Shown one piece after another: positions 7,313 through 52,223 of a DNA stretch of 64,000 nt (its first letter is position 1; every line of letters starts with the position of its first letter). The notes under the pieces are model-generated. The model saw only the letters and a list, made by a program, of their open reading frames with translations. It searched no databases and was not told the DNA's origin. Source of the stretch: Candidatus Aminicenantes bacterium (GTDB lineage Bacteria; Acidobacteriota; Aminicenantia; UBA2199). The stretch spans positions 1,652,313 to 1,716,312 of the forward strand of contig CAVXTN010000006.1 in NCBI GenBank assembly GCA_963764745.1, in the 5' to 3' direction. Position numbers and translations under genes: made by a program.

Positions 7313-8191
7313 CTACCAGGTGACGGTGACGCTGATGACGCCGGTGCCGAGGCTGGCCAGCCGGCCGAAGACCTCTTCGCTCAAGTCGATGATGCGCCCG
7401 GCGCCGAAGGGGCCGTAGTCGTCGACGACGCAGCTGGCCGTGCGGCCGTTGGCCGAGATGGTGACCCGGGTGCCACGGGGCACCGTGCGGCTGGCGCACC
7501 CGCCCGGGTTGTGGGCGTAGTAGCTGGCGAGGCCCGACTCGGAGTGGCTGGAGGAGGCCACCGTGGTGGGCGGTGCGGTGGTGGCGGGCGCCGCGGTGGT
7601 GGGCGGGGGCGTCCACGCCGGGGCTGCCGTGGTGGGCGTGGTGCTGGCCGTCTGGCCCGTCGAGGCCGCGGCCGTGGTGGGCGGCTCGGTGGTGGGGGCC
7701 TCGGTGGAGGGCGTGGTGGTGGCGGTGTGCTGCGACGCCGCCGCGGCACGGTGCAGGGCGATGGGCAGGAGCTTGGCGGAGGCGTCGTGGGCGCCCGGGG
7801 CGGGCACGCTCGACGAGCTGCCCGACGGCCCGGCGACGGTGCGGACCTGCACCGTCTTGGCCTGCGGCACCGCGCTGGCCGAGCCACGCGAGACCAGCAG
7901 CAGGGGCAGCATCAGGGCCGTGACCAGCACGGCGAAGAGGATGCCGGGGCTCTCCCAGGGCATGCCGTGGGCGACGGTGGCGGCCGGAGCCGTGACGGTG
8001 GCCGCAGGCCGGGCCGCGCGCCGGGCAGCAGGCCGGGCAGCGCGCCGGGCAGCAGGCCGGGCGGCGCGCCGGGCTCGGCGGGCGTTGGCCGGGAGCCGCG
8101 ACGGCGGCAGCTCGACGCGAGCCTCGGGCGGTAACGGGGGGGAATCGTGCATGAAGTCGACAAGGTTACGAGCGTCGTAACCCAACCGCAA
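7313..8191 (-). CDS. Membrane-anchored RlpA-like (DPBB domain) protein with a Thr/Pro/Ala-rich linker. It sits where RpfB lies in mycobacteria.
   Basis: C-terminal SGLASYYAHNPGGCASRTVPRGTRVTISANGRTASCVVDDYGPFGAGRIIDLSEEVF is an RlpA double-psi beta-barrel. TM helix GILFAVLVTALMLPLLLV. The start may be the internal Met at 8152 (MHDSPP...). Confidence 0.7.
   Translation of the reverse strand: MRLGYDARNLVDFMHDSPPLPPEARVELPPSRLPANARRARRAARPAARRAARPAARRAARPAATVTAPAATVAHGMPWESPGILFAVLVTALMLPLLLVSRGSASAVPQAKTVQVRTVAGPSGSSSSVPAPGAHDASAKLLPIALHRAAAASQHTATTTPSTEAPTTEPPTTAAASTGQTASTTPTTAAPAWTPPPTTAAPATTAPPTTVASSSHSESGLASYYAHNPGGCASRTVPRGTRVTISANGRTASCVVDDYGPFGAGRIIDLSEEVFGRLASLGTGVISVTVTW
8008..8079. 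repeat. Tandem 12/24-nt coding repeat (GCCGGGCAGC[AG][GC])x6 inside the rlpA-like gene
   Basis: Three consecutive 24-nt units (8008-8031, 8032-8055, 8056-8079) encode ...ARRAARPAARRAARPAARRAARPAA... Confidence 0.8.
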
Positions 8192-24125: not shown

Positions 24126-25008
24126 CGGGGGCTCCCTGCTGGGGTCGGCGTCGCACCAGCACCACCCCCACCACCGCCGCCACGATGGCGACGACCGCCG
24201 CCACGACGAGCACCGCGGGCAGGACGTGGTTGGGCGGATCGGTGCCGGTGGTCGACGAGTGCACCGCGGTGGGTCGGGCGAGCGGCGCCGAGGTGGGCGG
24301 GGTGGTCGTGGGCGCCAGGGTCGTGGTGGTGGTGGTGGACGTGGTGGTCGACGTCGTCGTGGAGGTGGTGGTGGTGGTCGTGGGCGTGGCCCGCCCGGCC
24401 GCGGCGATCTGCACGGCCACGAAGTGCGCCATGTGCACCGAGCCGCTGGGCGTGAGGTGCAGGCCGTCGCCACCGGTGTCGGTGGGCAGCGCGGCGGCGT
24501 TCCAGTCGGCGACCGTGACGTTGGGGTGCGCCGCGGCGACCTGGCGCATGACCTGGTTGGTCTGCGCGTAGTACGGCCGCGCCTGGCGGATGGTGAGGAG
24601 CACCACGTGCGGGACGGGTGCCAGGGCGTCGACCAGGGCCTGGAGCCGCGGTTGGTAGATGCTGGGCGTGCCCCCGTCGTTGGTGCCGAGCTGCACGACG
24701 ACCACCTGGAACCGGGTGCCGTGCCGCTGCACCACGGTGAGCCCCTGCTCGGTGCTGCGGTCGACCATCGCGTCGACGATGACCTTCCAGCCCTGCAGGT
24801 CGGCCGGGATGTTGCCGTAGGTGCCGGCCAGCACGCTGTCGCCGATCACCAGGGCGGTGTGCGGCGGGGGCGGCGCCGCGGCCCGACGCGTGGCCGGCCC
24901 GGCGACGGCCGCCGGGGTGAGGAGGGTCACCAGCGCCGCCGCGCCGATGAGGGCCGCGACGATGACGGCGCCTGGAGCGCCACGTCGCGCCCGTCGCTGC
25001 TGGTCCAT
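24118..25008 (-). CDS. SGNH/GDSL hydrolase family lipoprotein or secreted protein, with a C-terminal Thr-rich linker and TM anchor
   Basis: ...LVIGDSVLAG...GTNDG...DGLHLTPSG..., then [23 protein letters not shown] and a hydrophobic tail. Confidence 0.7.
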   Translation of the reverse strand: MDQQRRARRGAPGAVIVAALIGAAALVTLLTPAAVAGPATRRAAAPPPPHTALVIGDSVLAGTYGNIPADLQGWKVIVDAMVDRSTEQGLTVVQRHGTRFQVVVVQLGTNDGGTPSIYQPRLQALVDALAPVPHVVLLTIRQARPYYAQTNQVMRQVAAAHPNVTVADWNAAALPTDTGGDGLHLTPSGSVHMAHFVAVQIAAAGRATPTTTTTTSTTTSTTTSTTTTTTLAPTTTPPTSAPLARPTAVHSSTTGTDPPNHVLPAVLVVAAVVAIVAAVVGVVLVRRRPQQGAPDA

Positions 25009-25085
25009 GGTCGGGCTGGCGGGATTCGAACCCGCGGCCTCCTGCTCCCAAAGCAGGCGCGCTAACCAAGCTGCGCTACAGCCCG
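25008..25085 (-). tRNA. tRNA-Pro (anticodon TGG), CCA encoded
   Basis: Reverse complement CGGGCTGTAGCGCAGCTTGGTTAGCGCGCCTGCTTTGGGAGCAGGAGGCCGCGGGTTCGAATCCCGCCAGCCCGACCA. Anticodon stem CCTGC/GCAGG, loop TTTGGGA. The 3' terminal A shares a base with the start ATG of the SGNH hydrolase. Confidence 0.8.
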
Positions 25086-25157
25086 AAGAGGGGCCACGCT
25101 ACCGGCACCACCTGGGCGGCTCGACCCGTGTTCGACCGCCAGAGCTGCTCCCCCACC

Positions 25158-25206
25158 GTTCTCGGTGCGAAAACCGTCGCTGAGCGACGGTATTCGCACG
25201 CAGAAT
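25158..25206. repeat. Palindromic intergenic repeat, family B copy 2
   Basis: GTTCTCGGTGCGAAAACCGTCGC-TGA-GCGACGGTATTCGCACGCAGAAT. About 80% identical to the copy at 11729..11777, with a symmetric CG/GC internal mismatch. It lies just downstream of the LLM oxidoreductase stop. Confidence 0.75.
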
Positions 25207-25215
25207 CGGGGAGCG

Positions 25216-26235
25216 CTACCGGCCTCCCCCACCGAGGCCTGCCACGATGTCGGCGAAGTGGGCCGGGTCGGGCTGCCGGGTGCACTCGATGCTGACGGTG
25301 TCGGCCACGCCCGCGAGCTTCTCGCGCACCAGCCCGGGCACCGCGTCGCGACGCCCCACGACGGCCACGGCCTCGATGAGCTCGTCGGGCACCAGCTCGG
25401 CCATGTCGTCCCAGCGGCCCTCCTTCGACAGCCGGTTGAGCTGCGGGTGCAGGCCGTCCCAGCCGTGGACCTCGAGCACGCGGGCGTAGGCGGGCGTCGA
25501 GGCGTAGAAGGCCAGCTGCTTGCGGACCACCGCGATGGAGCGGTCGAGCTCGGCCCCCGTCGCTCCCGTTGCCAGCAGGCACACCACGATGACCTCGAGG
25601 TCGGCCCGGTCGCGGCCCGCGGCCGCCAGCCCGCGCGACACCGCCGGCAGGGTGAGCTCCAGCAGCGAGCGCCGCGTCGAGAAGGGGTGGACGATGACGC
25701 CGTCGCCGACCTCGGCCGCCACCTCGGTGAGGCGGGGCCCGACGGCGGCCACGTGCAGCCGGGCGCGGGGCACGCGGTGCGGTCCGGGGTCGAACGCGGG
25801 GGTCATGAGCGTGTGGCGGTAGAACTCGCCCTCGAAGTGCAGCGGGGCGATCCCGTCCCAGGCGTCCCAGATGGCGCGGATGCCCAGCACCATCTCCCGC
25901 ATGCGCGCGGCGGGCCGCGACCACGGCATCGAGTAGCGCCGCTCGATGTGCGGCCGGACCTGCGTCCCGAGGCCGAGCGTGAAGCGGCCGTCGCTCAGGT
26001 GGGCCAGGTCGTGGCCCACGTTGGCGAGCGTCATGGGGGTGCGGGCGAAGGCGATGGCGATGGCCGTGCCGAGGCGCAGCCGGGTGGTCGTGCGCGACGC
26101 CAGCGCGAGCGGCAGGAACGGGTCGTGCTTGGTCTCGTACGAGAACGCGCCGTCGTAGCCGCAGGCCTCGAGCTCGGCGAACAGCTCGCCCGCCGCGGCG
26201 ATGTCGTCGAAGGGCGTGGTCGTGAACACCTGCAC
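25216..26235 (-). CDS. LLM class F420-dependent oxidoreductase (luciferase-like monooxygenase family)
   Basis: MQVFTTTPFDD...GYDGAFSYETKHDPFLPLALA...LGTAIAIAFARTPM... Confidence 0.8.
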   Translation of the reverse strand: MQVFTTTPFDDIAAAGELFAELEACGYDGAFSYETKHDPFLPLALASRTTTRLRLGTAIAIAFARTPMTLANVGHDLAHLSDGRFTLGLGTQVRPHIERRYSMPWSRPAARMREMVLGIRAIWDAWDGIAPLHFEGEFYRHTLMTPAFDPGPHRVPRARLHVAAVGPRLTEVAAEVGDGVIVHPFSTRRSLLELTLPAVSRGLAAAGRDRADLEVIVVCLLATGATGAELDRSIAVVRKQLAFYASTPAYARVLEVHGWDGLHPQLNRLSKEGRWDDMAELVPDELIEAVAVVGRRDAVPGLVREKLAGVADTVSIECTRQPDPAHFADIVAGLGGGGR

Positions 26236-26909: not shown

Positions 26910-26933
26910 CCCGAGGAGTTCCCATGTCCGATG

Positions 26934-27717
26934 TCGTGTTGCTCGACGTGGCCGACCGCGTCGCCACGGTCACCATCAACCGGCCCGAGGCGCGCAACGC
27001 GCTCTCGCCGCGAGGTCCGGCGGCTGCTGCCCGCCGCTGATGTCGGAGGCCGACGGGCGCGACGACGTCGACGCGGTCGTGCTCACCGGCGCCGACCCCG
27101 CGTTCTGCGCAGGCCTCGACCTCAAGGAGCTGGGCTCGGGCGCCGCCGACCTGTCCGACGCCGGCGCGGTCGGCAACGTCGCTCCCGGCGGTCACCGCAA
27201 CGGGCCCTTCCCCGAGATGCGCAAGCCGGTGATCGGCGCGGTCAACGGCGTCGCCATCACGGGCGGGCTCGAGGTGGCGCTGGCCTGCGACTTCCTCGTG
27301 GCGTCCGAGCAGGCCCGCTTCGCCGACACCCACGCCCGCGTCGGCATCCAGCCCGGGTGGGGCCTCACGGTGCTGCTGCCCCAGGCGGTGGGGCTGCGCC
27401 GCGCCCGCGAGATGAGCGCCACGGGCAACTTCGTCGACGCGGCCACCGCCCTCTCGTGGGGCCTCGTGAACCACGTCGTGCCGCACGGCGAGCTGCTCGG
27501 CTTCGCGCAGCGCCTGGCGGCCGACATCGCCTCGAACGACGCCCGCGCCGTCCAGACGATCTACGCCACCTACGACGAGGGCAGCCTGCTGGCCCCCGGC
27601 GAGGCGTGGGACCTCGAGTCGCGCACCGCCGCGGCCTGGCAGGGCGCGGGCCTCGACCCGGCGGAGATCGAGCGCCGCCGTCAGACCGTCAGCGACCGCG
27701 GCCGCCAGCAGGTCTGA
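26934..27717 (+). CDS. Enoyl-CoA hydratase/isomerase family protein. Frameshifted, likely twice, around 27020-27045.
   Basis: GAGGAG RBS, then MSDVVLLDVADRVATVTINRPEARNALS. The protein continues in another frame (...DAVVLTGADPAFCAGLDLKE...GAVNGVAITGGLEVALACDF...). Confidence 0.75.
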
Positions 27718-27730
27718 AAACCGCCCACAC

Positions 27731-27785
27731 ACGCGTTTTGGGGACGGATATGTGCGCCAGGCGCACATATCCGTCCCCGAAACGT
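27731..27785. repeat. Palindromic intergenic repeat, family A copy 1 (~24-bp stem), between the convergent ECH and ferritin-like genes
   Basis: ACGCGTTTTGGGGACGGATATGTGCGCC-AG-GCGCACATATCCGTCCCCGAAACGT. Related copies at 47901..47956 and 49321..49375. Confidence 0.8.
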
Positions 27786-27821
27786 CAGAGCGGTGAGTCA
27801 GAGCGGTGAGGCTGAGCGGGG

Positions 27822-28967
27822 TCAGCCGGCTTCGGCGGCAGCCTCGCGGTCGGCGTTGACGGCGTCGAAGTCGAGGTACTCCTCGCCGGTGTCGGTCCAG
27901 TCCTCGAACTGGGTGACGCCGAGCACGTCGAAGCTCTTGCGCAGCCAGCCGTCGTTGGCGTCGAGCAGGCCGAGCTTCTTGCAGTTGGGCACGATCTTCG
28001 AGAACAGCAGCTGCTGGAACGGGTCCTCGTTCTTGTCGGCCGACGTTGAAGGTGCGGATGGCCTCCTTCACGTCGACGCCCATGCGCTCCCAGACCTCCT
28101 GCTGGAGGAAGCGGTCGCGCATGCGCACCGCGGCCTCGAAGGCGAACTCCTGGCGGTCCAGCATCTCGGCGTCGGTGAGGCCCTCGTAGTACTCCTTCAG
28201 CGACAGCACGCCGAAGGCCACGTGGCGGGCCTCGTCGCTCATGACGTAGCGCAGCAGCTGCTTGAGCAGCGGCTCCTGGGTGGTCTGGTAGGCCATGCCG
28301 AACGCGGCCAGGGCGAGGCCCTCGACCATGATCTGCATGCCCAGGTAGGTCATGTCCCAGCGGCTGTCGTTGATGATGTCGTCGAGCAGCATCCGCAGGT
28401 GGGCGTTGATCGGGTAGTGGCCGTCGACACTTGGTGTCGAGGTACTTGGCGAAGACCTCGACGTGGCGGGCCTCGTCCATCACCTGGGTGGCGGCGTAGT
28501 ACTTGGCGTCGATCCACGGCACCGTCTCGACGATCTTGGCGGTGCAGATGAGCGCGCCCTGCTCGCCGTGCATGAACTGCGACAGCGACCAGTTCTGGCG
28601 ACTCGATCTGGAAGTCGAGCCACTCGCGGTCGCCCCACTTCGCGAGCGCCGTGCCCGTGAGGTCGATGCCGAGCATGTCGAAGATGTCCTCGCCGGCCAC
28701 GCCCTGCTCCGCCGGCCATCTTCTCCTGGTCGACCTCGATCGACCAGTCGAGGTCGGTCTCGCCGTTCCACTGCGACCGCTTGGCCTTCTCGTACAGCTT
28801 GTTCGAGCTGCGGGCCGGGCGCCCTTCTCGTAGTCCCACGTGAAGATGGCGTCGGCGTTGTCGGAGACCGTGTGGACAGCCTCGTCGACGTCGGTGTTGG
28901 TGATGGCGAGGATGGCGTCGAGGTCGTCGGTCTCCTCGCGACCGAGGATGTCGGCTTCGTTGGTCAT
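27822..28967 (-). CDS. Ferritin-like diiron-carboxylate protein (AurF/acyl-ACP-desaturase-like oxygenase family). At least five frameshifts.
   Basis: Reconstructed across three frames: MTNEADILGREETDDLDAIL... then ...NKLYEKAKRSQWNGETDLDW... then ...SQFMHGEQGALICTAKIVETVPWIDAKYYAATQVMDEARHVEVFAKYL... then ...DSRWDMTYLGMQIMVEGLALAAF...VMSDEARHVAFG... then ...DKNEDPFQQLLFSKIV...EAAAEAG*. Two E...EARH motifs. Confidence 0.6.
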
Positions 28968-28969
28968 GG

Positions 28970-29630
28970 TCAGGTCCCCCTTGGATCTGCGGATGGTGGT
29001 GGTGCGTGGTCGGGCCCGCTGTCGGCGAGAGCCACCACCAGGTGGGTGATGAGCTGCTCCCACGGCCCGGGCGTGGGCAGCGGCAGGTCGGTGGCGTCGA
29101 ACAGCAGGAAGCCGAACGCCAGGGCGTGGCAGAAGGCCACGAGCGAGTCGGTGTCGATGCCCTCGGAGATGCCCCCGTCGGCCTTGGCCGCCTCGACGAT
29201 GGCGGTGAGCCGGTCCTGGCGCTCGAGCACCCGGTTGCGCAGCACCTCGGCCACCTCGGGGTGGCGGCGGGCCGCGACGAAGGCCTCGAGCAGCAGCGAC
29301 GACTGTCGCGGGCACCTCGGTGTCGCGCTTGACCAGGTGGGTGCCGGCGGTCAGGAGGATGTCCTCCATGCGGCCCTGGAAGTGGTGGTCGGCGAACAGC
29401 GCCTCGAGCTCGTCGTTGGCGTGCGGGTCGATGGCCTCGACGAGGAGGTCGGCCTTGTTGGCGAAGCGTCCGTAGATGGCGCCGGTGGTGACGCCGGCCC
29501 GGCGGGCGATCTCGGCGACGCCGGCCTTGTCGTAGCCCCGCTCCGCGAAGACCTCGGCCGCGGCGGCCAGCAGGCGGTCGCCCAGGGCGTCGACCTCGGG
29601 GTCTCCGGGGGGCAGGGTCGGCTCGGGCAT
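28970..29630 (-). CDS. TetR/AcrR family transcriptional regulator. Frameshifted near 29290.
   Basis: N-terminal HTH LLAAAAEVFAERGYDKAGVAEIARRAGVTTGAIYGRFANK (inside ORF 28350..30224). C-terminal ligand-binding half in ORF 28970..29254. Confidence 0.7.
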
Positions 29631-29639
29631 CCGTCGGAT

Positions 29640-29655
29640 GATAATGACTATTATC
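29640..29655. promoter_or_regulatory. AT-rich inverted repeat GATAAT-GACT-ATTATC in the TetR upstream region. Candidate TetR operator and -10 element.
   Basis: ccgtcggatGATAATGACTATTATCcgggg lies 10-25 nt upstream of the TetR start. It is a striking AT island in a 72% GC background. Confidence 0.5.
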
Positions 29656-29700
29656 CGGGGGGTCAACGGGTCGTCCGTCACCCCCCGCCCGCCCGTGGGG

Positions 29701-30730
29701 CTACGTGAGCAGGACCCGCACGTCGACCGGGATGAGGTCGGTGAGGGACACCTCCGGACGGGCGCCCACGTGCGAGATGATCTCCGCCGCGGCGATGCCG
29801 CCGAGCCGGGCGCAGTCGGCGAAGCCGAGCCCGTGGGTGAGGCCGAAGAGGAAGCCGGCGGCGTAGAGGTCGCCCGCACCGGTGGTGTCGACGACGTGCT
29901 CGACGTGCGCGGCCGCGACCACGTGCACGACCCCGTCGGCCACCACCACCGAGCCCCTGCGAGCTGCGCGTGAGCGCCCAGATGCCGGGACGGGCCCGGA
30001 CCTCGACCAGCGCCGCGTCGAACGAGTCGACCTCGAAGAGCGAGCAGATCTCGGCCTCGTTGGCGAAGACGATGTCGACGTGGCCGTCGAGCAGCTCGAG
30101 GAACTCGGCCCGGTTCTGGTCGACGCAGAACGCGTCCGACAGCGTGAAGGCGGTGCGCCGACCGGCCGCCCGGGCGGTGGCGAACGCGTGGGTGAGGGCG
30201 GCCTTGGCGCCGGGCTCGGCCCACAGGTACCCCTCGCCGTAGGTGACCTCGGCCGACGCGATGAACGCCGGGTCGATGTCGTCGGGCGTGAGCAGCCCTG
30301 CGGTGCCGAGGTAGGTGTTCATGGTCCGCTGCGCGTCGGGCGTGACGAGGATGAGGCAGGTGGCCGTGGGCGGTCCCTCGGCGGCCGGCGGCGAGACGAA
30401 CTCGACGCCGATGGCCTTGATGTCGTGTGCGAAGACCTCGCCCAGCTGGTCGTCGCGGACCTTGCCGACGAACCCGGCGCGGCCACCCAGGCCCGCCACG
30501 CCCGCCATGGTGTTCGCCGCCGAGCCGCCCGACGACTCGGAGCCCGGGCCCATGGCGTCGTACAGGCGCCCGGCCTGCTCGGTGTCGATCAGGCGCATCG
30601 AGCCCTTGGCCAGCTCGTGCTCGACGAGGAAGGACTCGTCGGCGTGGGCGATCACGTCGACGATGGCGTTGCCCACCGCCACGACGTCGAGCTCGGCGGG
30701 CGGGTTGGCGGAGGCGGTCGCGTCAGTCAT
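29701..30730 (-). CDS. PfkB family carbohydrate/nucleoside kinase. Frameshifted near 29960.
   Basis: ...VVAVGNAIVDVIA...GGSAANTMAG... The C-terminal DTTGAGDLYAAGFLFGL motif is in ORF 29701..29949. Confidence 0.75.
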
Positions 30731-30758: not shown

Positions 30759-32122
30759 TCAGGGCCAGATGACCCGGCCGAAGCCGCTGAAGGTGTCGGG
30801 CCACACCCGGTCGACCCGCACCACCGAGCCCGTGTAGGGCGCGTCGATCATGAGGCCCCCGCCGATGTACATGCCCACGTGGTAGGCGGGCCGGCCGAAG
30901 AACACCAGGTCGCCGGGCTGCACGTCCTTGGGGGCCACCGGCGTGGCCCAGGCCTGCTGCGCCTGCGACACCCGCGGGATGGAGGTGACGCCAGCCGCCT
31001 GGAACGCCCGCAACATCAGCCCCGAGCAGTCGAAGCGGTCGGGGCCGGTGCCGCCCCACAGGTAGGGCTTGCCGTACTGGGCCACCACGTAGAGGACGGC
31101 CACGGCGGTGCGCTTGTCGGCCTTCTTGGGGATGACGATGGTGCCCGCCGGGCTGTTCACCGTGACCACGCCGGCCTGGTGCTTGAAGGTCTTGGGCAGC
31201 TTCTCGAGGGTGCCGGGCGCGAGGTCGGGGTTGAGGGCGACTTCGGCCATCAGCTCCTTCTCGTCCACGTCGAGCTGGTGCTGTGCGGCCTTCAGCGCTC
31301 CCGTGGCGGCGTCGAGGGTGCCCCGGGCCGAGCGGTGCGCGGCCTCGGCGGCGCGGCGCTGGCGGAACGCCACGTCGAGGACCGCCAGGGCCCGCGCGTG
31401 GTCGCCCGCGGCCGAGGCGATGCGCTCGCGCAGCTGCTGGGTGGTGAGGGCCATGTAGGTGCGCGCGGGGCCGCCGGTCTGGGGGTCGGAGGCCATGCCC
31501 GCGTCGAGCGAGACCCCGCCGCCGCCCTGGTAGCCGGTGTAGGCGCGCATGGCGGCCCACTTGAGGTCGCGCCGACGCCGCGCCCGGCCTTGCCCGCCGC
31601 ACGCACGTCGGCACGGTGCGCGGCCTCGAACACCAGCCGGGCCGCAGCCGCGGTGCGGGTTGCCGCCCGGTAGCGGATCTTCGCCGGGCCGACCGCCTTG
31701 GTGGCCGTCTCGACCGCCACCGAGTCGGCGTCGACGAGTCGGGCGATGTGGAACAGGGGGTCGTCGGAGGCCGACGGGATGAGGGGGGTCGGCACGAAGC
31801 CGGGCTGGGACTCGGCGGCGGGTGGGCCCCCGGGGACGGTGGTGCTCGTGGTGGTGGTGGTCGACGCACCGGGCTTCGCCGGCGTGGTGGTGGACGTGGC
31901 GCGCGGCGCCGTGGTGCTCGGCTCCGACGGCAGCGTGGTGGTGGGCGCCTCGGTGGTCGGCGGGAGGGTGTCGGTGACGGGCGGGTCGGTCGGCGCCGGT
32001 GCCGGGTCGGCGTGGCGGGCGCCGCTCGCGACGGGGGCCACCCAGACCGACAGCAGCGCCGCGAGCGCCGCTGCGGCCACCGCCACGGTCGGGCGGCGAC
32101 CGTGCAGGTTGTGGGTGGGCAT
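30759..32122 (-). CDS. RipA-like NlpC/P60 peptidoglycan endopeptidase with an N-terminal signal peptide, Thr/Pro linker and coiled-coil. Frameshifted near 31570.
   Basis: C-terminal catalytic domain ...[25 protein letters not shown]...GDLVFF...[15 protein letters not shown].... The N-terminal half is in ORF 31292..32122. Confidence 0.75.
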
Positions 32123-42350: not shown

Positions 42351-42427
42351 GTGGTGGAGGTGATGGGACTCGAACCCACGGCCTCTTCGATGCGACCGAA
42401 GCGCTCTAGCCAACTGAGCTACACCCC
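42351..42427 (-). tRNA. tRNA-Ala (anticodon CGC), CCA encoded
   Basis: Reverse complement GGGGGTGTAGCTCAGTTGGCTAGAGCGCTTCGGTCGCATCGAAGAGGCCGTGGGTTCGAGTCCCATCACCTCCACCA. The G3:U70 pair in the acceptor stem is the Ala identity element. Anticodon loop GTCGCAT. Confidence 0.8.
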
Positions 42428-42475
42428 CGCAGGAAGCGTCACCTTAGCCGAGGCCGCGAAGGCCCCCGGAACGCG

Positions 42476-42503
42476 TCACTGCCCGGCCGTGAGGCCGGGC
42501 AGT
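42476..42503 (-). terminator. Strong hairpin: 12-bp perfect stem, GTGA loop. Candidate intrinsic terminator of the CAP-domain gene, ahead of the tRNA-Ala promoter.
   Basis: CACTGCCCGGCC-GTGA-GGCCGGGCAGTG. No U-tract, as is common in Actinobacteria. Confidence 0.5.
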
Positions 42504-42558
42504 GGCTGCGGGTCGGCTTCGGGCTCCCCTCCCTCGACCGACGCGTCCTTGGTGTGGC

Positions 42559-47848: not shown

Positions 47849-47900
47849 GGATGTCTAGACGCCCGACCCACCCCAAACCTTGCACCCGTCTCCCCCTTCC

Positions 47901-47956
47901 ACGTTCTGGGGACGGATATGTGCGCCTGGCGCACATATCGCACCGAAAGTGCGGGT
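47901..47956. repeat. Palindromic intergenic repeat, family A copy 2 (degenerate right arm carrying an embedded GCAC-CGAAA-GTGC mini-hairpin)
   Basis: ACGTTCTGGGGACGGATATGTGCGCC-TG-GCGCACATATCGCACCGAAAGTGCGG. Located between the AAA ATPase stop and the sigma factor start. Confidence 0.7.
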
Positions 47957-47990: not shown

Positions 47991-49076
47991 TCAGAGGTAG
48001 AAGCCGACCGCGGCGGGCGGCTCGACCGCCTCGATGGGCCCCGCGCCGCCGACCCGGGCGTAGAGCTCGGCCACCGTGGCTCCCTCGGCGGCGATGGGCA
48101 CCGCCTCGCCGAGCCACTCCCGGCACTCCTCCGGGCTGAGCCGCCCCACCTCGATCTGGGCGAGGCAGCGACCCGGGCGGATCACGGCCGGGTGGAGGCG
48201 CGCGTGAGGGGCTCGTTGGTGGTGATCGCCACCAACACCTCGAGGCCCTGGCCGAGGATGCCGTCAGTGAGGTTGAGGAGGCGAGCGAGCGACTGCCCGG
48301 TCCCCGACTTGGCGTCGCCACGGATCAGCTCGTCGCAGTCCTCCAGGATGAGCAGCCGCCACCGCGGGTCGCCCTCGTCGTCCGGCTCGCAGAGCCCGAC
48401 CTCCATCAGGTAGCTCGGGTCGCGCAGCAGGCGTTCCGGATCGAGGACGCAGTCGACCTGGCACCACGACCGCCACCCATGGGCGAGCGCACGCAGCGCG
48501 GTGGTCTTGCCGGTTCCCGGAGGACCGTGCAACAGCAGCAGGCGACCGTTGATCGCGTCGGGCCGCAACGCCATGAGGTCGTCGAACGCCGCCGCGACGG
48601 AGCGCTGGTAGTTGCGCCGGATCTCGGGCCAGGGGCGCACCGCGATGCCCCGCGTGCGCCGCACCGGGCCGCGCTGCCCTACGTTCCAGAACCCCAGGCT
48701 CACACGCTCGTCGGTGGGCGCGGGGGGCTCGACCGCACCCTCGCAGGCCTCGTCGAGCACCTGCCGCGGCCACGTCGGCGCTCGTCGCCGTCACCGTCAG
48801 CACGGCAGAGCGATCCCGGTAGCGCGCCACGAGGAGCAGCCAGCCGTCACCGGACACGAGCGTCGAGGTCCGGTGCGACTGCTCGGCGTGACGGATCACG
48901 GCACCGCCGTCGGGGAGGAGGGCGGCGTCGGGCAGCACGTTCTCGAGCTGGCGCGTCCGCGACCAGGGCTGGGTCCCGGCCACGAAGGCCGCGATGATCA
49001 TCGTGTCGATGACCGCGCCGGGGTTGGCGCACTCGTCGAGGGTGATGGAGGTCGGAGGGAAGGTGGAAGGGAACAT
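47991..49076 (-). CDS. AAA family ATPase with a ~170-aa N-terminal domain of unknown function. Two frameshifts.
   Basis: Walker A LLLHGPPGTGKTTALRAL, Walker B LLILEDCDE, sensor-1 ITTNEP, sensor-2/Arg finger IRPGR (in ORF 47991..48185). N-terminal MFPSTFPPTSITLDECANPG... in ORF 48264..49109. Confidence 0.65.
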
Positions 49077-49145
49077 GGCTGAGGTCGCGTTCGTGAAGGC
49101 GCGCGGCACAGACGCGTCGCGCTGGATCGGGTTCGGCCCGGCTGG

Positions 49146-49171
49146 AGCCGGTGTCGGTCGCGGGCTCTAGA
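49146..49171. promoter_or_regulatory. Perfect 26-bp palindrome GGTCGCGGGCTCTAGAGCCCGCGACC, about 70 nt upstream of the AAA ATPase start
   Basis: The sequence is its own reverse complement. It lies between the pmbA end, the family-A repeat and the AAA ATPase start. Confidence 0.5.
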
Positions 49172-49320
49172 GCCCGCGACCTGGCTGCACGCCGAAGGTG
49201 GCCCTCGACGGGGCAGGTCCCCGGAGGGCCGCGGCGGCAGCAGTGGACGAACGCATAGGGCGGAGATGATGCGCCTCCCCGCTCCGCGTGTCAACGGAGT
49301 TCCCGGTCAACCCACCCTCG

Positions 49321-49375
49321 ACGCGTTTTCTAGGGACGGATGTGTGCGCCTGGCGCGCATATCCGTCCCCAAAAG
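49321..49375. repeat. Palindromic intergenic repeat, family A copy 3
   Basis: ACGCGTTTTCTAGGGACGGATGTGTGCGCC-TG-GCGCGCATATCCGTCCCCAAAAG. Just downstream of the pmbA stop (49407). Confidence 0.8.
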
Positions 49376-49406
49376 ATCGACGGCGAAGGGAGGCGGCAGG
49401 CGAGGG

Positions 49407-50748
49407 TCAGGTGCCGGAGACGGAGATGTCGCGCAGCACCAGGCTCACGCCGGCGGCGCTCATGGGCAGCCACTCGACGTCGTTGCCCACGGCCACCACG
49501 TCCTTGAGCATGCGCTGGAGCGTGGAGGCGATGGTGAACTCCCGCAGCGGCTGGCCGAGCACGCCGTCGACGATGCGCAGCCCCTCGGCGCCGGTGGAGA
49601 AGTCGCCACTGACCGGGTTGACGCCCGAGTGCAGGCCCGGCCACGGACGAGACCAGGATGCCGTCGCCCACCTCGGCCAGCAGCTCCGGCTGGGTCTTGG
49701 TGCCGGGCACCAGCGACACGGCCCGGCAGCCGACGCCCGGGGTGCTCTTGAAGCCACGGACGGCGGAGCCGGTGGAGACGGTGCCCGACCGGCGGGCGGT
49801 GTAGGCGTTGTGCGCGAACTTCTGCAGGACGCCGCTGTCGACGAGGACGTTGCGGCGCGTGGCCAGGCCCTCGCCGTCGGTGTGCGAGGCGGTGTAGGCG
49901 AGCGGGTTGGTGGGGTCGTCGACGAGCGTGAGCACCGACGAGGCGATCTCGTCGCCCAGCCGGTCGGCGAAGAGGGAGCGGCCCTTGAGCACGGCCTCGC
50001 CGTTCATGGTGCCGGCGAGGATCCCGATGAGCTGGGCCGTGACGTAGGGATCGAGGACCACGGTCATGCGGCCGCCCGCGGGCTTGACGGCGCCGAGCAG
50101 GCGGGTGGCGCGCTGGGCCGCGTCGGACGCGGCCGCGTCGACGTCGAGCTCGGACGGCTCACGGCCGACCGAGAACCCGAAGCCGGTCTTGGTGTCGCCG
50201 TCGGCGGTGGCGAGCGGGTAGGCGCCCACGTAGCAGGCGGAGTCGCGCCCGGTGGCCCGGATGCCGGTGGTGGTGACCACCACGCCCTCGCTCACGCCGT
50301 CGGCGTACTCGGCCGCCTCGATGCCGCTGATGCGCGGGTCGGCCGCACGGACGGCCCGCTCGAGGTCGAGGGCCAGCGCCACCTTGCGGTCGGTGGGGAC
50401 GTCGAACAGGCCCGGTCGGTACAGGTCGAGGTCGGGCACCGGCACGCCGTCGGGCTCGGCCAGGCCGAGGAACTCGTCGGGGGTGCCGAAGCCGGCGTTG
50501 TCGCGGGCCTCGTCGAGGACCTCGTGCAGCACGTCGGGGTCGAGGCTGCCGGCGTAGGCGAAGCCCTGCCGCCCGTCGGCGATGACGCGCACGCCGAGGC
50601 CCTGCGACTCGGCCGACGACAGCGACTCGATGTCGCCCTCGTAGACCCGGATCTCGGTGGAGCGGCTCTTGCCGACGACCACCTCGACCTGCTCGCCGTC
50701 GTGCGCCCAGCCGATGACCCGATCGGCGATCGCCAGCAGCTCGTCCAT
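49407..50748 (-). CDS. pmbA: Metalloprotease PmbA/TldE. Frameshifted near 49760.
   Basis: MDELLAIADRVIGWAHDGEQVEVVVGKSRSTEIRVYEGDIESL... The C-terminus ...VAGLHSGVNPVSGDFSTGAEGLRIVDGV... is in ORF 49407..49757. Confidence 0.75.
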
Positions 50749-50764
50749 GGTTCGCGCTTCGCGC

Positions 50765-52223
50765 TCATGCCGCGGACCCGCCGATGGTGAGCTTCGACAC
50801 CCGCAGCGTGGGGACGCCGTCGCCGACGGGCACGCCCTGGCCGTCCTTGCCGCACGTCCCGGGCGGACCGAACTCGAAGTCGTTGCCCACGGCCTCGATG
50901 TTCTGGAGCACCTCGGGGCCGTTGCCGATGAGGTTGCCCTCGCGGAGCGGCTCGGTGATCTCGCCGTTCTCGATGAGGTACGCCTCGGTCATGCCGAAGA
51001 CGAAGTCGCCGGTGGCGGTGTTGACCTGGCCGCCGCCGAGCTTGGCCACGTAGACGCCGTGCTCGGTGCCCGACACGATCGAGGCCGGGTCGTCGGGGCC
51101 GTCGAGGATGAAGGTGTTGGTCATGCGCACCATGGGCAGGTGCTGGTAGCTCTGACGGCGGCCGTTGCCCGAGCGGGGCCGGCCCTCCTTGCGCGAGCGG
51201 AGGAAGTCCCACATGTAGTCGGTGAGGATGCCGTCCTGGATCAGCACGTTGCGCTGGGCCGGGGTGCCCTCGTCGTCGCAGCCGAACGCGCCCCACTCGG
51301 TGGCGACGGTGCCGTCGTCGACGAGCGTGACGAGCGGCGACGCGACCTGCTCACCGCGGCGGTCCTTGAACACCGAGGCGCCCTTGGCGATGAGGTCGGC
51401 CTCGAGGCCGTGGCCGCACGCCTCGTGGAACAGCACGCCACCGCCGCCCGGCCCGATGACGACGGGCAGCTCGCCGGTGGGCGCCGGTCGCGCCGCGAGC
51501 TTGGTGAGCGCCCGCTCGGCGGCGGCGCGTGCCAGCTCCTCGACGTCGTAGCGGTCGAACAGCTCGAAGCCGATGGTGTGGCCGATGCTCTCGCGGCCCG
51601 TCTGCATGCCCGTGTCGCCCAGGGCCACGGCACCGACGGTGAACAGCGTGCGCACCTGGTCGTCGCCGGTGAGGAGGCCGTCGGAGTTGGCGATGAGGAT
51701 GCGGCGGCGGCTGTCGGCGTAGCTGGCCGACACCTGCCGGATGTCGCCACCGGCCGCGCGGGCGGCGCCGTCGGCCCGCTGCAGCAGCTCCACCTTGGTG
51801 GCCTTCGCCGACGTCGGACGGCTGGATCTGCGCCGGGCTCGGGTGGCGCACCTCGGTGCGGGTGAGGGCCACCGTGCGGGTGCCGCCCCCGCCTTCGCGG
51901 GCTGCGGCGGCCGCGGCCTCGGCGGCGACGAGCAGGCCGGTCTCGGACAGGTCGGCGGTGTGGGCGAAGCCCGTGGTCTCGCCCACGACCACCCGGATGC
52001 CGGCGCCGCGATCGCGGCCCGACGACAGCTCCTCGATCTTGCCGTCGTCGAGGTAGGCCGACGACGAGCGCTTGTCCTCGGCGAAGACCTCGGCGAAGTC
52101 ACCCCCGGTGCGCAGCGCGGCGGTCAGGACCCGGGTGACGACGTCGTCGTCGATGAGGGCGGCAGCGGGCACAGGTGCCTCCAGAGGGGCGTTGTCGGCA
52201 GCCTCGATTCGGGGCCGCCGCAC
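50765..52223 (-). CDS. tldD: Metalloprotease TldD. At least two frameshifts.
   Basis: ...GVLFHEACGHGLEAD...GNGRRQSYQHLPMVRMTNTF...VCGKDGQGVPVG... are TldD signature motifs. N-terminal part in ORF 51351..52223. Confidence 0.8.

What the first reader, a model, noticed from the sequence alone, without database searches (positions are those of the whole stretch)
27731..27785. Family A: ~55-nt near-perfect palindromic intergenic repeat, three copies in this window
Three copies share the core TTTT-GGGGACGGATATGTGCGCC-[AT]G-GCGCACATATCCGTCCCC-AAAA and form ~24-bp hairpins. They are at 27731..27785, 47901..47956 (degenerate arm) and 49321..49375. Copies 1 and 3 also share the 5' flank ACGCGTTTT. All are intergenic and sit at gene ends: between convergent genes, or between a stop and the next start. 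This is the behaviour of REP/MITE-like elements, or of I-shaped, U-tract-less terminators in Actinobacteria. I do not recognise the sequence as a known element. Three copies in 22 kb suggests a genome-wide dispersed family.
Basis: seen in the sequence. Interest (0 to 1): 0.7.

Follow-up and report, generated by a model that had tools for sequence, protein, structure and literature searches.

The report
Small mobile palindromic repeat after genes
The three hairpins are copies of a previously undescribed, roughly 55-base palindromic repeat that comes and goes in the short gaps just after genes in an uncultured soil actinobacterium; this is an ordinary kind of selfish "mini-transposon" (REP/MITE-like), not a proven transcription terminator.

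Summary
There are three copies, at 27732-27785, 47900-47950 and 49322-49376, and the arm motif is found 6 times against 0.05 expected.

The consensus is CGCG-TTCT-GGGGACGGATATGTGCGCC-W-GGCGCACATATCCGTCCCC-AGAAGT. No flank beyond this is shared.

The window comes from an uncultured Actinomycetota lineage assembled from soil and permafrost metagenomes. I collected 12 sites in this and related genomes. Every site lies 5-48 nt after a stop codon, and both orientations occur.

Evidence for mobility:
- Copy 3 is missing in two assemblies that differ from the window by 1-2%.
- The copy-1 site is empty in a sister lineage.
- One close strain has a different inner palindrome at the copy-1 site.
- Copies within a genome share genome-specific variants.
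- 5 of 12 sites have 4-6-bp flanking direct repeats (permutation P about 0.0004).
- All three empty alleles keep a CGCG.

Evidence against a canonical terminator or structured RNA: there is no U-tract, no covariation above shuffles and no Rfam match.

Other hairpin families in these genomes share the CGTTCT...AGAACG feet.

Verdict: a new, lineage-restricted member of the REP/MITE-like class. The closest functional analogue is the mycobacterial TRIT. Terminator or 3'-end-protecting activity is possible but untested. Genome-wide copy number could not be measured.

The parts
27732..27785 (+). Family A copy 1: CGCG-TTTT foot, perfect 19+19 arms (27740-27758 and 27760-27778), loop base A at 27759, GAAACG foot. 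It lies between convergent stop codons.
   Evidence: R1 score 79 bits. The site is empty in L007/L010/L013, filled in L006 and L004, and holds a variant core in L005.
47900..47950 (+). Family A copy 2: CACG-TTCT foot, intact left arm 47908-47926, loop T at 47927, decayed right arm. It lies 40 nt after the stop of the DUF5925/AAA gene (47991) and upstream of the ECF sigma gene start (47848).
   Evidence: 46 bits. The copy is intact in L038/L039. A diverged copy is present in the 73%-identity relative L071, the site is empty in L068, and a different palindrome occupies it in L075.
49322..49376 (+). Family A copy 3: CGCG-TTTTCTA foot, arms 49332-49350 and 49352-49370 with two G.U-type mismatches, AAAAGA foot. 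It lies 30 nt after the PmbA stop (49407) and just upstream of a promoter-like site.
   Evidence: 72 bits. The copy is absent from L038/L039 (= L066/L067, 1-2% divergent) and from L068. It is flanked by the direct repeat TCGACG.
27715..27717 (+). Stop codon of the enoyl-CoA hydratase gene, 14 nt before copy 1.
27822..27824 (-). Stop codon of the AurF-like di-iron gene (frameshifted in this window), 36 nt after copy 1.
47991..47993 (-). Stop codon of the DUF5925/AAA gene, next to copy 2.
49407..49409 (-). Stop codon of the PmbA/TldD-family gene, next to copy 3.
49266..49294 (-). Promoter-like site TTGACA-17-CATCAT for the DUF5925 operon, immediately downstream (in the minus direction) of copy 3.
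   Evidence: It is conserved in L066, L068 and L070.
11728..11778 (.). Related hairpin family B, with the same CGTTCT...AGAACG feet and a different stem: CGTTCT-ACGTGCGGATACCGTCGC-TGG-GCGACGGTATCCGTGCGT-AGAACG. It lies 12 nt after a glyoxalase-family stop codon.
   Evidence: (35 bits to model R1).
25106..25222 (.). A 108-nt insertion containing a family B hairpin (25165-25199) plus the second copy of a 9-bp direct repeat CGCTACCGG (25097-25105 and 25214-25222). It lies next to the tRNA at 25011-25085.
   Evidence: absent from L004 and L007, present in L005 and L006. The tree makes insertion the parsimonious direction.

Best explanation
Family A is a lineage-specific, non-coding, palindromic mobile repeat of about 50-57 bp, of the MITE/REP-like class.

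The unit is TTCT-GGGGACGGATATGTGCGCC-W-GGCGCACATATCCGTCCCC-AGAAGT. In effect it is two 24-27-nt terminal inverted repeats placed back to back.

Shown here:
- Near-identical copies sit in otherwise unrelated spacers.
- The copies always lie 5-48 nt after a stop codon, in either orientation.
- The copies are gained, lost or replaced between genomes that differ by only 1-4%.
- Copies within one genome share that genome's own variants (concerted evolution).

Inferred:
- New copies are inserted at or next to CGCG-like tetranucleotides by a transposase supplied in trans, which has not been identified.
- Insertion leaves 4-6-bp target duplications that later decay.
- Copies persist only where insertion is harmless, namely the spacer after a stop codon and outside promoters.
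- Palindrome-stimulated deletion and recombination between alleles then remove or swap copies.

When transcribed, the element gives a 22-24-bp hairpin with no U-tract. At most it would protect 3' ends from exonucleases or hinder read-through or convergent transcription, as REP, SPRITE and TRIT elements are proposed to do. It is not a canonical intrinsic terminator.
For: - Copies at non-orthologous sites: three in the window, L001-L003 in MAG Chersky.40_32, and L022, L023 and L030/L035 in other soil contigs.
- Only the roughly 55-nt core is shared; the flanks are unique.
- Copy 3 is absent from L038/L039, which differ from the window by 1.2-1.6%.
- The copy-1 site is empty in L007/L010/L013, where the spacer is 19 nt.
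- The copy-2 site is empty in L068, holds a different palindrome in L075, and holds a diverged family-A copy in L071.
- L005 has the same feet and outer stem as copy 1 but a different 23-nt core at that site.
- Flanking direct repeats CGCG, TCGC, GCCG, TCGACG and CCCACG occur at 5 of 12 sites, against 1.3 expected. The permutation P for summed length is 0.0004. Where the left foot deviates from CGCG (CACG, GCCG), the right flank carries the same deviation.
- All three empty alleles retain a CGCG where the element's CGCG foot sits.
- Concerted evolution: all four MAG copies share one stem mismatch, including the copy orthologous to the perfect window copy 1. The two copies in the 73%-identity relative share their own variant, GGAACGG...TGGAC...CCGTTCC.
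- All 12 sites lie 5-48 nt after a stop codon.
- A sister family-B insertion has a clean 9-bp duplication.
- The family is restricted to one lineage. One species among 185,579 GTDB representatives has the motif. It is absent from IMG/VR, plasmids and phages.
Against: - No transposase or parent insertion sequence with these ends was seen. Only about 300 kb of this lineage could be examined, and the window itself holds housekeeping genes.
- No filled/empty pair differs by the element alone. Another 20-45 nt of neighbouring spacer also differs, so exact insertion boundaries are not demonstrated.
- For copies 1 and 2 the direction of change (gain or loss) is ambiguous. L068 looks like a deletion footprint.
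- The direct-repeat test was designed after I had seen the pattern, and it uses only 12 sites.
- Seven of 12 sites show no duplication.
- Genome-wide copy number is unknown.
- The copy-2 site is occupied in a relative with only 73% protein identity. That fits long-term retention, and therefore possibly function.
Confidence: 0.6

Rival explanations
1. The hairpins are primarily functional RNA elements: U-tract-less (I-shaped), bidirectional transcription terminators or 3'-end stabilisers. On this view they are kept at gene ends by selection, and their similarity is maintained by gene conversion rather than by transposition.
For: - All 12 sites lie 5-48 nt after a stop codon. Several lie between convergent genes, or between a stop codon and the next promoter.
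- The hairpins are very stable: -49 and -38 kcal/mol, z = -9 and -5.6.
- The copy-2 spacer holds a hairpin in three of four lineages, once from a different family.
- Between lineages both arms changed together: GGGACGG/CCGTCCC became GGAACGG/CCGTTCC.
- TRIT is a published precedent for sequence-conserved palindromic 'terminators' in actinobacteria (PMC3152330).
Against: - There is no U-tract on either strand. The T-run precedes the stem and the A-run follows it, and the terminator scan finds nothing.
- Covariation is no higher than in shuffles, and 11% of stem cells are mismatched.
- Copies are dispensable in strains only 1-2% apart.
- Gene conversion cannot create a copy in a spacer that has no prior homology.
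- In mycobacteria, RNA polymerase needs a U-tract (PMC3993855), and predicted TRIT and I-shaped terminators overlap only 2-4% of mapped 3' ends (bioRxiv 10.1101/2022.06.01.494293).
Confidence: 0.2
2. It is a REP-type element mobilised by a RAYT or IS200/IS605-like HUH (Y1) transposase acting on single-stranded DNA hairpins. The conserved CGCG(TT) 5' of the hairpin foot would be the cleavage or target tetranucleotide, and insertion would occur without target duplication.
For: - A conserved tetranucleotide lies 5' of the hairpin foot, and the feet are shared by several hairpin families with unrelated stems: family B, L030 1308-1359 and L075.
- CGCG pre-exists in all three empty alleles.
- The single-stranded DNA hairpins are stable, at -30 to -33 kcal/mol.
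- Copies within a genome evolve in concert, as REPIN populations do.
Against: - The flanking direct repeats vary with the site (GCCG, CCCACG, TCGACG), which fits staggered-cut duplication better.
- There is no GTAG or CGTC head.
- Copies are single, not paired as REPINs or BIMEs.
- The stems are longer and more perfect than in typical REPs.
- No RAYT gene was seen, although this could not be tested genome-wide.
- A full-text search for REPIN, RAYT and Actinobacteria together returned no paper.
Confidence: 0.12
3. It is a palindromic protein-binding DNA site, such as an operator or a recombination or attachment site like an integron attC, rather than a repeat element.
For: It is a perfect dyad, the centre CCWGG is itself a palindrome, and it lies at the 3' ends of genes as attC sites do.
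Against: - The arms, at 19-24 bp, are far longer than operators.
- The sites are dispensable between strains.
- The neighbouring genes are syntenic housekeeping genes, not cassettes.
- The feet read GTTCT...AGAAC, which is the wrong order and sequence for the attC core sites RYYYAAC...GTTRRRY.
- The loop CCWGG is not kept in the L070 variant.
Confidence: 0.03

Closest known systems
Bacterial MITEs that sit at gene 3' ends, such as SPRITE of Streptococcus pneumoniae and QMITE2 of Coxiella (review PMC10969869)
   Same: - Short, non-coding and built of terminal inverted repeats.
- Intergenic, mostly 3' of ORFs.
- Present or absent between strains.
- Flanked by short direct repeats.
- The transcripts form hairpins that could act on transcription or RNA stability.
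   Different: - At about 55 bp it is at the very small end of the range, with nothing between the two inverted repeats.
- No parent insertion sequence is known.
- The target duplication is only statistically suggested.
- Unlike SPRITE, it lacks the U-tract of a terminator.
REP/BIME/REPIN elements mobilised by RAYT transposases (PMC3733652; PMC12306157)
   Same: - Dispersed extragenic palindromes after genes.
- A conserved short motif 5' of the hairpin foot.
- Concerted evolution within a genome.
- Proposed roles in mRNA 3'-end protection and termination.
   Different: - No GTAG or CGTC head; the foot is CGCG-TTCT.
- The 19-24-bp near-perfect stem is longer than the usual 20-40-nt imperfect REP.
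- Copies are singletons, not inverted pairs.
- No RAYT is known in this lineage.
- The PMC3733652 survey does not mention Actinobacteria.
TRIT, the 'Tuberculosis Rho-independent terminator' motif (PMC3152330)
   Same: - An actinobacterial, sequence-conserved, palindromic and therefore bidirectional hairpin.
- Tightly associated with gene ends and restricted to one lineage.
- Lacks a canonical U-tract.
   Different: - TRIT is restricted to Mycobacterium and centres around position -8, inside the coding sequence. Family A lies +5 to +48 after the stop.
- The family-A core was found in no Mycobacterium among the GTDB representatives.
- Sequence homology could not be tested, because the TRIT consensus is available only as a figure.
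I-shaped (U-tract-less) intrinsic terminators proposed for Actinobacteria
   Same: A stable GC-rich hairpin just downstream of stop codons, with no U-tract.
   Different: - I-shaped terminators are defined by structure only, and each has its own sequence. Family A copies are 85-100% identical in sequence and vary between strains, which points to copying.
- The activity of such hairpins is disputed (PMC3993855; bioRxiv 10.1101/2022.06.01.494293).

Membership tests
MITE | Terminal inverted repeats and no coding capacity, with a size of about 50-500 bp | tested here: met
   The whole 50-57-bp unit is two inverted 24-27-nt arms. It has no ORF of its own.
MITE | Target-site duplication flanking the element | tested here: inconclusive
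   Five of 12 sites have direct repeats of at least 4 nt next to the feet, against 1.3 expected; permutation P is 0.0004. However, the test was post hoc, the repeat lengths are 4-6 nt with 0-2-nt offsets, and 7 sites have none.
MITE | Presence/absence polymorphism at orthologous sites | tested here: met
   Copy 3 is absent from L038/L039. The copy-1 site is empty in L007/L010/L013. The copy-2 site is empty in L068.
MITE | A parent autonomous insertion sequence with the same termini, supplying transposase in trans | not testable with these tools
   No transposase was found in the roughly 300 kb held.
REP / REPIN (RAYT-associated) | A conserved GTAG or CGTC tetranucleotide at the head of the palindrome | tested here: not met
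   The head is CGCG-TTCT. There is no GTAG. CGTC occurs only inside the right arm.
REP / REPIN (RAYT-associated) | Arrangement as inverted pairs or clusters (REPIN, BIME) | tested here: not met
   All copies are singletons. The nearest pair is 1.4 kb apart.
REP / REPIN (RAYT-associated) | A RAYT (Y1 HUH) gene in the same genome | not testable with these tools
   Only fragments of the genomes could be fetched.
REP / REPIN (RAYT-associated) | High copy number (tens to hundreds per genome) | not testable with these tools
   There are 3 copies in 64 kb here and at least 4 in a fragmented MAG. No whole genome was available.
Canonical intrinsic terminator | A GC-rich hairpin followed immediately by a 7-9-nt U-tract | tested here: not met
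   The hairpin is present, but it is followed by GAAA/AGAA on both strands. The terminator scan gave 0 hits.
I-shaped terminator / TRIT-like | A stable hairpin at the gene end | tested here: met
   All 12 sites lie 5-48 nt after a stop codon. Folding energy is -38 to -49 kcal/mol.
I-shaped terminator / TRIT-like | Transcript 3' ends or termination at the hairpin | not testable with these tools
   No transcriptome data are available for this uncultured lineage.
TRIT | Restricted to Mycobacterium and centred about 8 nt before the stop codon | tested here: not met
   The host is a non-mycobacterial Actinomycetota MAG lineage. All copies lie after the stop codon.
Structured RNA family (Rfam) | A match to a curated covariance model, or covariation supporting the stem | tested here: not met
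   There is no hit at gathering threshold. Below threshold there are only generic miRNA-hairpin hits. The covariation score is 0.067 against a shuffled mean of 0.070.
Integron attC | RYYYAAC...GTTRRRY core sites, gene cassettes and a nearby integrase | tested here: not met
   The feet are GTTCT...AGAAC. The neighbours are syntenic housekeeping genes.

The most novel reading that the evidence does not exclude
The elements may belong to a clade-wide system of interchangeable hairpin cassettes. Several families with unrelated stems share the same CGCG-TTCT...AGAA-CG feet: A, the L005 core variant, B, the L030, L075 and L003 types, and the L070 variant. They repeatedly occupy, replace one another at, or vacate the same 'landing pads' a few bases after stop codons. 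This would imply a foot- or hairpin-specific recombinase or transposase, not yet identified, that installs and swaps mobile 3'-end hairpins (mobile terminators or RNA stabilisers) at CGCG sites.
Probability: 0.15. Interest if true: 0.7.

Novelty: new member of a known kind. Interest (0 to 1): 0.4.

Why it matters
- Small palindromic repeats of this class are well documented in Proteobacteria and Firmicutes. I found few reports for Actinomycetota apart from TRIT.
- This is an undescribed family in an uncultured soil and permafrost lineage, and its gain, loss and replacement can be seen between near-identical strains.
- It is a practical marker for strain typing, and a likely cause of contig breaks and misassembly in these MAGs.
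- Because strains with and without a copy exist, it gives a natural test of a disputed question: do hairpins without a U-tract act at gene 3' ends in high-GC actinobacteria?
- The several hairpin families with shared feet hint at a common mobilising enzyme worth looking for.

Tried and rejected
- Rfam at gathering threshold over the whole window, and at E<=10 around copy 1, gave only tRNAs and sub-threshold generic miRNA-hairpin hits.
- blastn of the element against plasmid and phage collections found no match.
- IMG/VR scans found 0 hits for the core. The 26 hits for foot plus outer stem all lacked a hairpin and were chance matches.
- The metagenome scan with a loosened pattern returned 23 contigs. 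Only 4 hold real copies; the rest are coding-sequence coincidences.
- I searched the protein database with the three reading-frame translations of the element, hoping to find spurious ORFs that span copies. No candidate was found.
- Looking up the sigma-factor protein found nothing on record. The MoaC and FlK look-ups returned only the same two assemblies.
- I could not extend beyond the window ends, because the end genes (NifU and others) are frameshifted in the window, so exact-protein look-ups fail.
- One Pfam batch failed on an out-of-frame reference.
- Rejected after inspection: integron attC, an operator site, a CRISPR or tandem array, and an assembly artefact. On the last point, the element occurs in independent short-read and long-read assemblies from different samples.
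- RNA-level selection on the stem finds no support from covariation. The two G.U-type mismatches of copy 3 lie on the strand antisense to its neighbouring genes.

Full report
**1. Observation**

The 19-nt arm, allowing up to 3 mismatches, matches six times in the window against 0.05 expected; five matches are arms of the three copies. The repeat finder recovers the family independently (D13/I3/I5/I6).

- Copy 1 is a perfect 19+19 palindrome around one base. With its T-rich and A-rich feet it forms 24 pairs (RNA -49.3 kcal/mol, z = -9.0; DNA -30.1 kcal/mol).
- Copy 3 has two arm mismatches (-38.4 kcal/mol, z = -5.6).
- Copy 2 has a decayed right arm in this window only. In two sister assemblies the same copy is perfect.

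The window (73% G+C) is full of frameshifted genes when compared with those assemblies. Small indels in it should therefore not be over-interpreted.

**2. Where the window comes from**

An exact-protein look-up places the locus in long-read soil metagenome assemblies: ENA ERZ25039488 contig_4364 (1.49 Mb) and ERZ25039489 contig_83416. Both differ from the window by 1.2-1.6%.

A scan of one genome per GTDB species (185,579 species) for the core found it in a single organism, the permafrost MAG 'Actinomycetota bacterium Chersky.40_32'. That MAG has four copies on four contigs, and one of them is orthologous to window copy 1.

A sister lineage about 3-4% divergent is represented by several JGI contigs (L007-L014). 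The nearest relatives of a neighbouring protein (DUF5925/AAA) are 91%, 81% and 73% identical, and everything else is at or below 59%. The lineage is therefore isolated and uncultured.

**3. Anatomy**

I aligned 12 copies from 9 independent sites. The consensus is CGCG-TTCT-GGGGACGGATATGTGCGCC-W-GGCGCACATATCCGTCCCC-AGAAGT.

Nothing beyond about 57 nt is shared. The unit has a weak polarity: CGCG lies 5' of one foot and GT follows the other. The T-run precedes the stem and the A-run follows it on both strands, so they only lengthen the stem. There is no U-tract, and the terminator scan finds nothing.

**4. Genomic context**

All 12 sites lie 5-48 nt after a stop codon. Five lie between convergent genes or at a contig end, and the others lie between a stop codon and the next gene on the same strand. 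Copy 3 lies between the PmbA stop codon and a promoter-like TTGACA-17-CATCAT.

Either foot can face the upstream gene. No transposase is present in the window or in the fetched flanks.

**5. Turnover between close relatives**

| Site | Filled (family A) | Empty | Other state |
|---|---|---|---|
| Copy 1 | window, L006, L004 | L007/L010/L013: spacer TGA-CCCGGCGCGCCCTCTCGGG-TCA | L005: same feet and outer stem GGGGACGG/CCGTCCCC, but an unrelated 23-nt inner palindrome |
| Copy 2 | window group; diverged family-A copy in the 73%-identity relative | 81%-identity relative, where CCCAACGCGG looks like a footprint of ...CCCCAGAACGCGG | 91%-identity relative: a different perfect palindrome |
| Copy 3 | window only; a copy in opposite orientation in the 73%-identity relative | L038/L039 and the 81%-identity relative | none |

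(Copy 1. Copy 2. Copy 3.)

In every comparison, spacer sequence next to the element also differs. Clean boundaries are therefore not available, and the direction of change (gain or loss) is ambiguous for copies 1 and 2.

A sister hairpin family (B) does give a clean case. A 108-nt insertion with a 9-bp direct repeat is present in the window group and absent from both outgroups.

**6. Signs of a transposition-like mechanism**

- Five of 12 sites carry direct repeats of 4-6 nt abutting the feet: CGCG, TCGC, GCCG, TCGACG and CCCACG. Pairing left and right flanks from different sites gives 1.3 such sites on average. None of 5,000 permutations reached 5, and P = 0.0004 for summed repeat length.
- Where the left tetranucleotide deviates from CGCG, the right flank shows the same deviation. 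This is what a target duplication predicts.
- All three empty alleles retain a CGCG at the corresponding position.
- The caveats are that the test is post hoc, the sample is small, and CGCG is its own reverse complement.

**7. Concerted evolution**

All four MAG copies share one stem mismatch (T.C, mirrored as G.A in L003). This includes the copy orthologous to the perfect window copy 1. The two copies in the 73%-identity relative share their own variant, GGAACGGATATGCGCGC-TGGAC-.... Copies therefore track their genome rather than their locus. Re-insertion from an active master copy, or gene conversion, would both produce this.

**8. No evidence for a selected RNA structure**

On the 12-copy alignment, 89% of stem cells pair. 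The covariation measures equal the shuffled controls (0.067 against 0.070; 305 of 500 shuffles are at least as high), and eight pairs depart from the consensus only by mismatches. Rfam gives nothing. The palindrome is explained by common descent.

**9. A wider superfamily**

Other hairpins in these genomes have unrelated stems but the same feet:

- window 11728-11778 and 25165-25199, and L035 1484-1534 (family B);
- L030 1308-1359;
- L075 1179-1216;
- L003 2238-2278;
- the L005 core variant.

 Model R1 scores several of them at 32-47 bits. This suggests a shared target or a shared recognition sequence for a common enzyme. The idea is not proven.

**10. Interpretation**

The best-supported reading is a small, non-autonomous, MITE/REP-like palindromic repeat. 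It inserts at CGCG-like sites and survives only just after stop codons.

A role as a 3'-end hairpin, in termination, as a barrier to convergent transcription or in mRNA protection, is plausible by analogy with REP, SPRITE and TRIT (PMC10969869, PMC3152330). It is untested here.

Published data on mycobacteria argue against efficient termination without a U-tract (PMC3993855). Predicted TRIT and I-shaped terminators overlap only 2-4% of mapped 3' ends (bioRxiv 10.1101/2022.06.01.494293).

The family fails the defining tests for REP (no GTAG or CGTC head, no pairing), TRIT (wrong host and position), attC and canonical terminators. It meets the MITE criteria except for an identified parent element and a firmly established target duplication.

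**11. Limits**

- The mobilising enzyme is unknown.
- The alternative core in L005 and the mirrored core in L003 are unexplained.

Noticed in passing
window 27822-30730; also 26926-27040, 49407-52223 and 62470-63288: Many genes are broken by frameshifts relative to the gene calls in sister assemblies: AurF-like, TetR, PfkB, the 5' end of enoyl-CoA hydratase, PmbA, TldD and NifU. The window looks like an indel-rich long-read assembly rather than a set of pseudogenes.
   Followed up: partly
window 25097-25222 (hairpin 25165-25199), next to the tRNA at 25011-25085: A second hairpin family (B: CGTTCT-...ACCGTCGC-TGR-GCGACGGT...-AGAACG) lies inside a clean 108-nt insertion flanked by a 9-bp direct repeat CGCTACCGG. 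The insertion is absent from L004 and L007. Another family-B copy is at 11728-11778 and a third at L035 1484-1534.
   Followed up: partly
L005 11436-11474 (orthologous to window 27740-27778): The feet and outer stem are the same as in copy 1, but the inner 23 nt are replaced by an unrelated palindrome, TTTCGGCGCGATATGCGCCGAAA. No second copy of that core occurs in any sequence held.
   Followed up: partly
window about 49073-49256, minus strand: A leader of about 190 nt lies between the promoter-like site and the DUF5925 start codon. It is conserved in the 81%- and 73%-identity relatives and contains a conserved short ORF of about 28 codons (MRSSTAAAAALRGPAPSRATFGVQ...). It may be an unannotated leader peptide or small protein.
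   Followed up: partly
window 49156-49181: A perfect 26-nt palindrome, GGTCGCGGGCTCTAGAGCCCGCGACC, lies inside that leader. Relatives keep a hairpin at the same place with a changed sequence.
   Followed up: no
window 42475-42506: The hairpin GTCACTGCCCGGCC-GTGA-GGCCGGGCAGTGGC lies between a gene end and the tRNA at 42355-42428. It is identical in L038/L039 and in the 81%-identity relative (L068 8672-8703), so unlike family A it is positionally conserved.
   Followed up: no
window 27784-27809: A 13-nt tandem duplication, GTCAGAGCGGTGA x2, lies immediately to the right of copy 1. L005 and L004 have only one copy or a diverged version.
   Followed up: no
L030 1308-1359; L075 1179-1216; L003 2238-2278: Three further palindromic hairpin types have T-rich and A-rich feet (CGCGTTTT...GGAACG, GCGTTTTG..., TTCTGG...CCCAGA) in related soil contigs. 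The L075 hairpin occupies the site that corresponds to window copy 2.
   Followed up: partly
window 7540-7734, 24270-24398 and 31831-31944: GTG/GGT-rich low-complexity direct repeats (repeat finder family D1) lie inside coding regions. They are probably repetitive linker segments of proteins.
   Followed up: no
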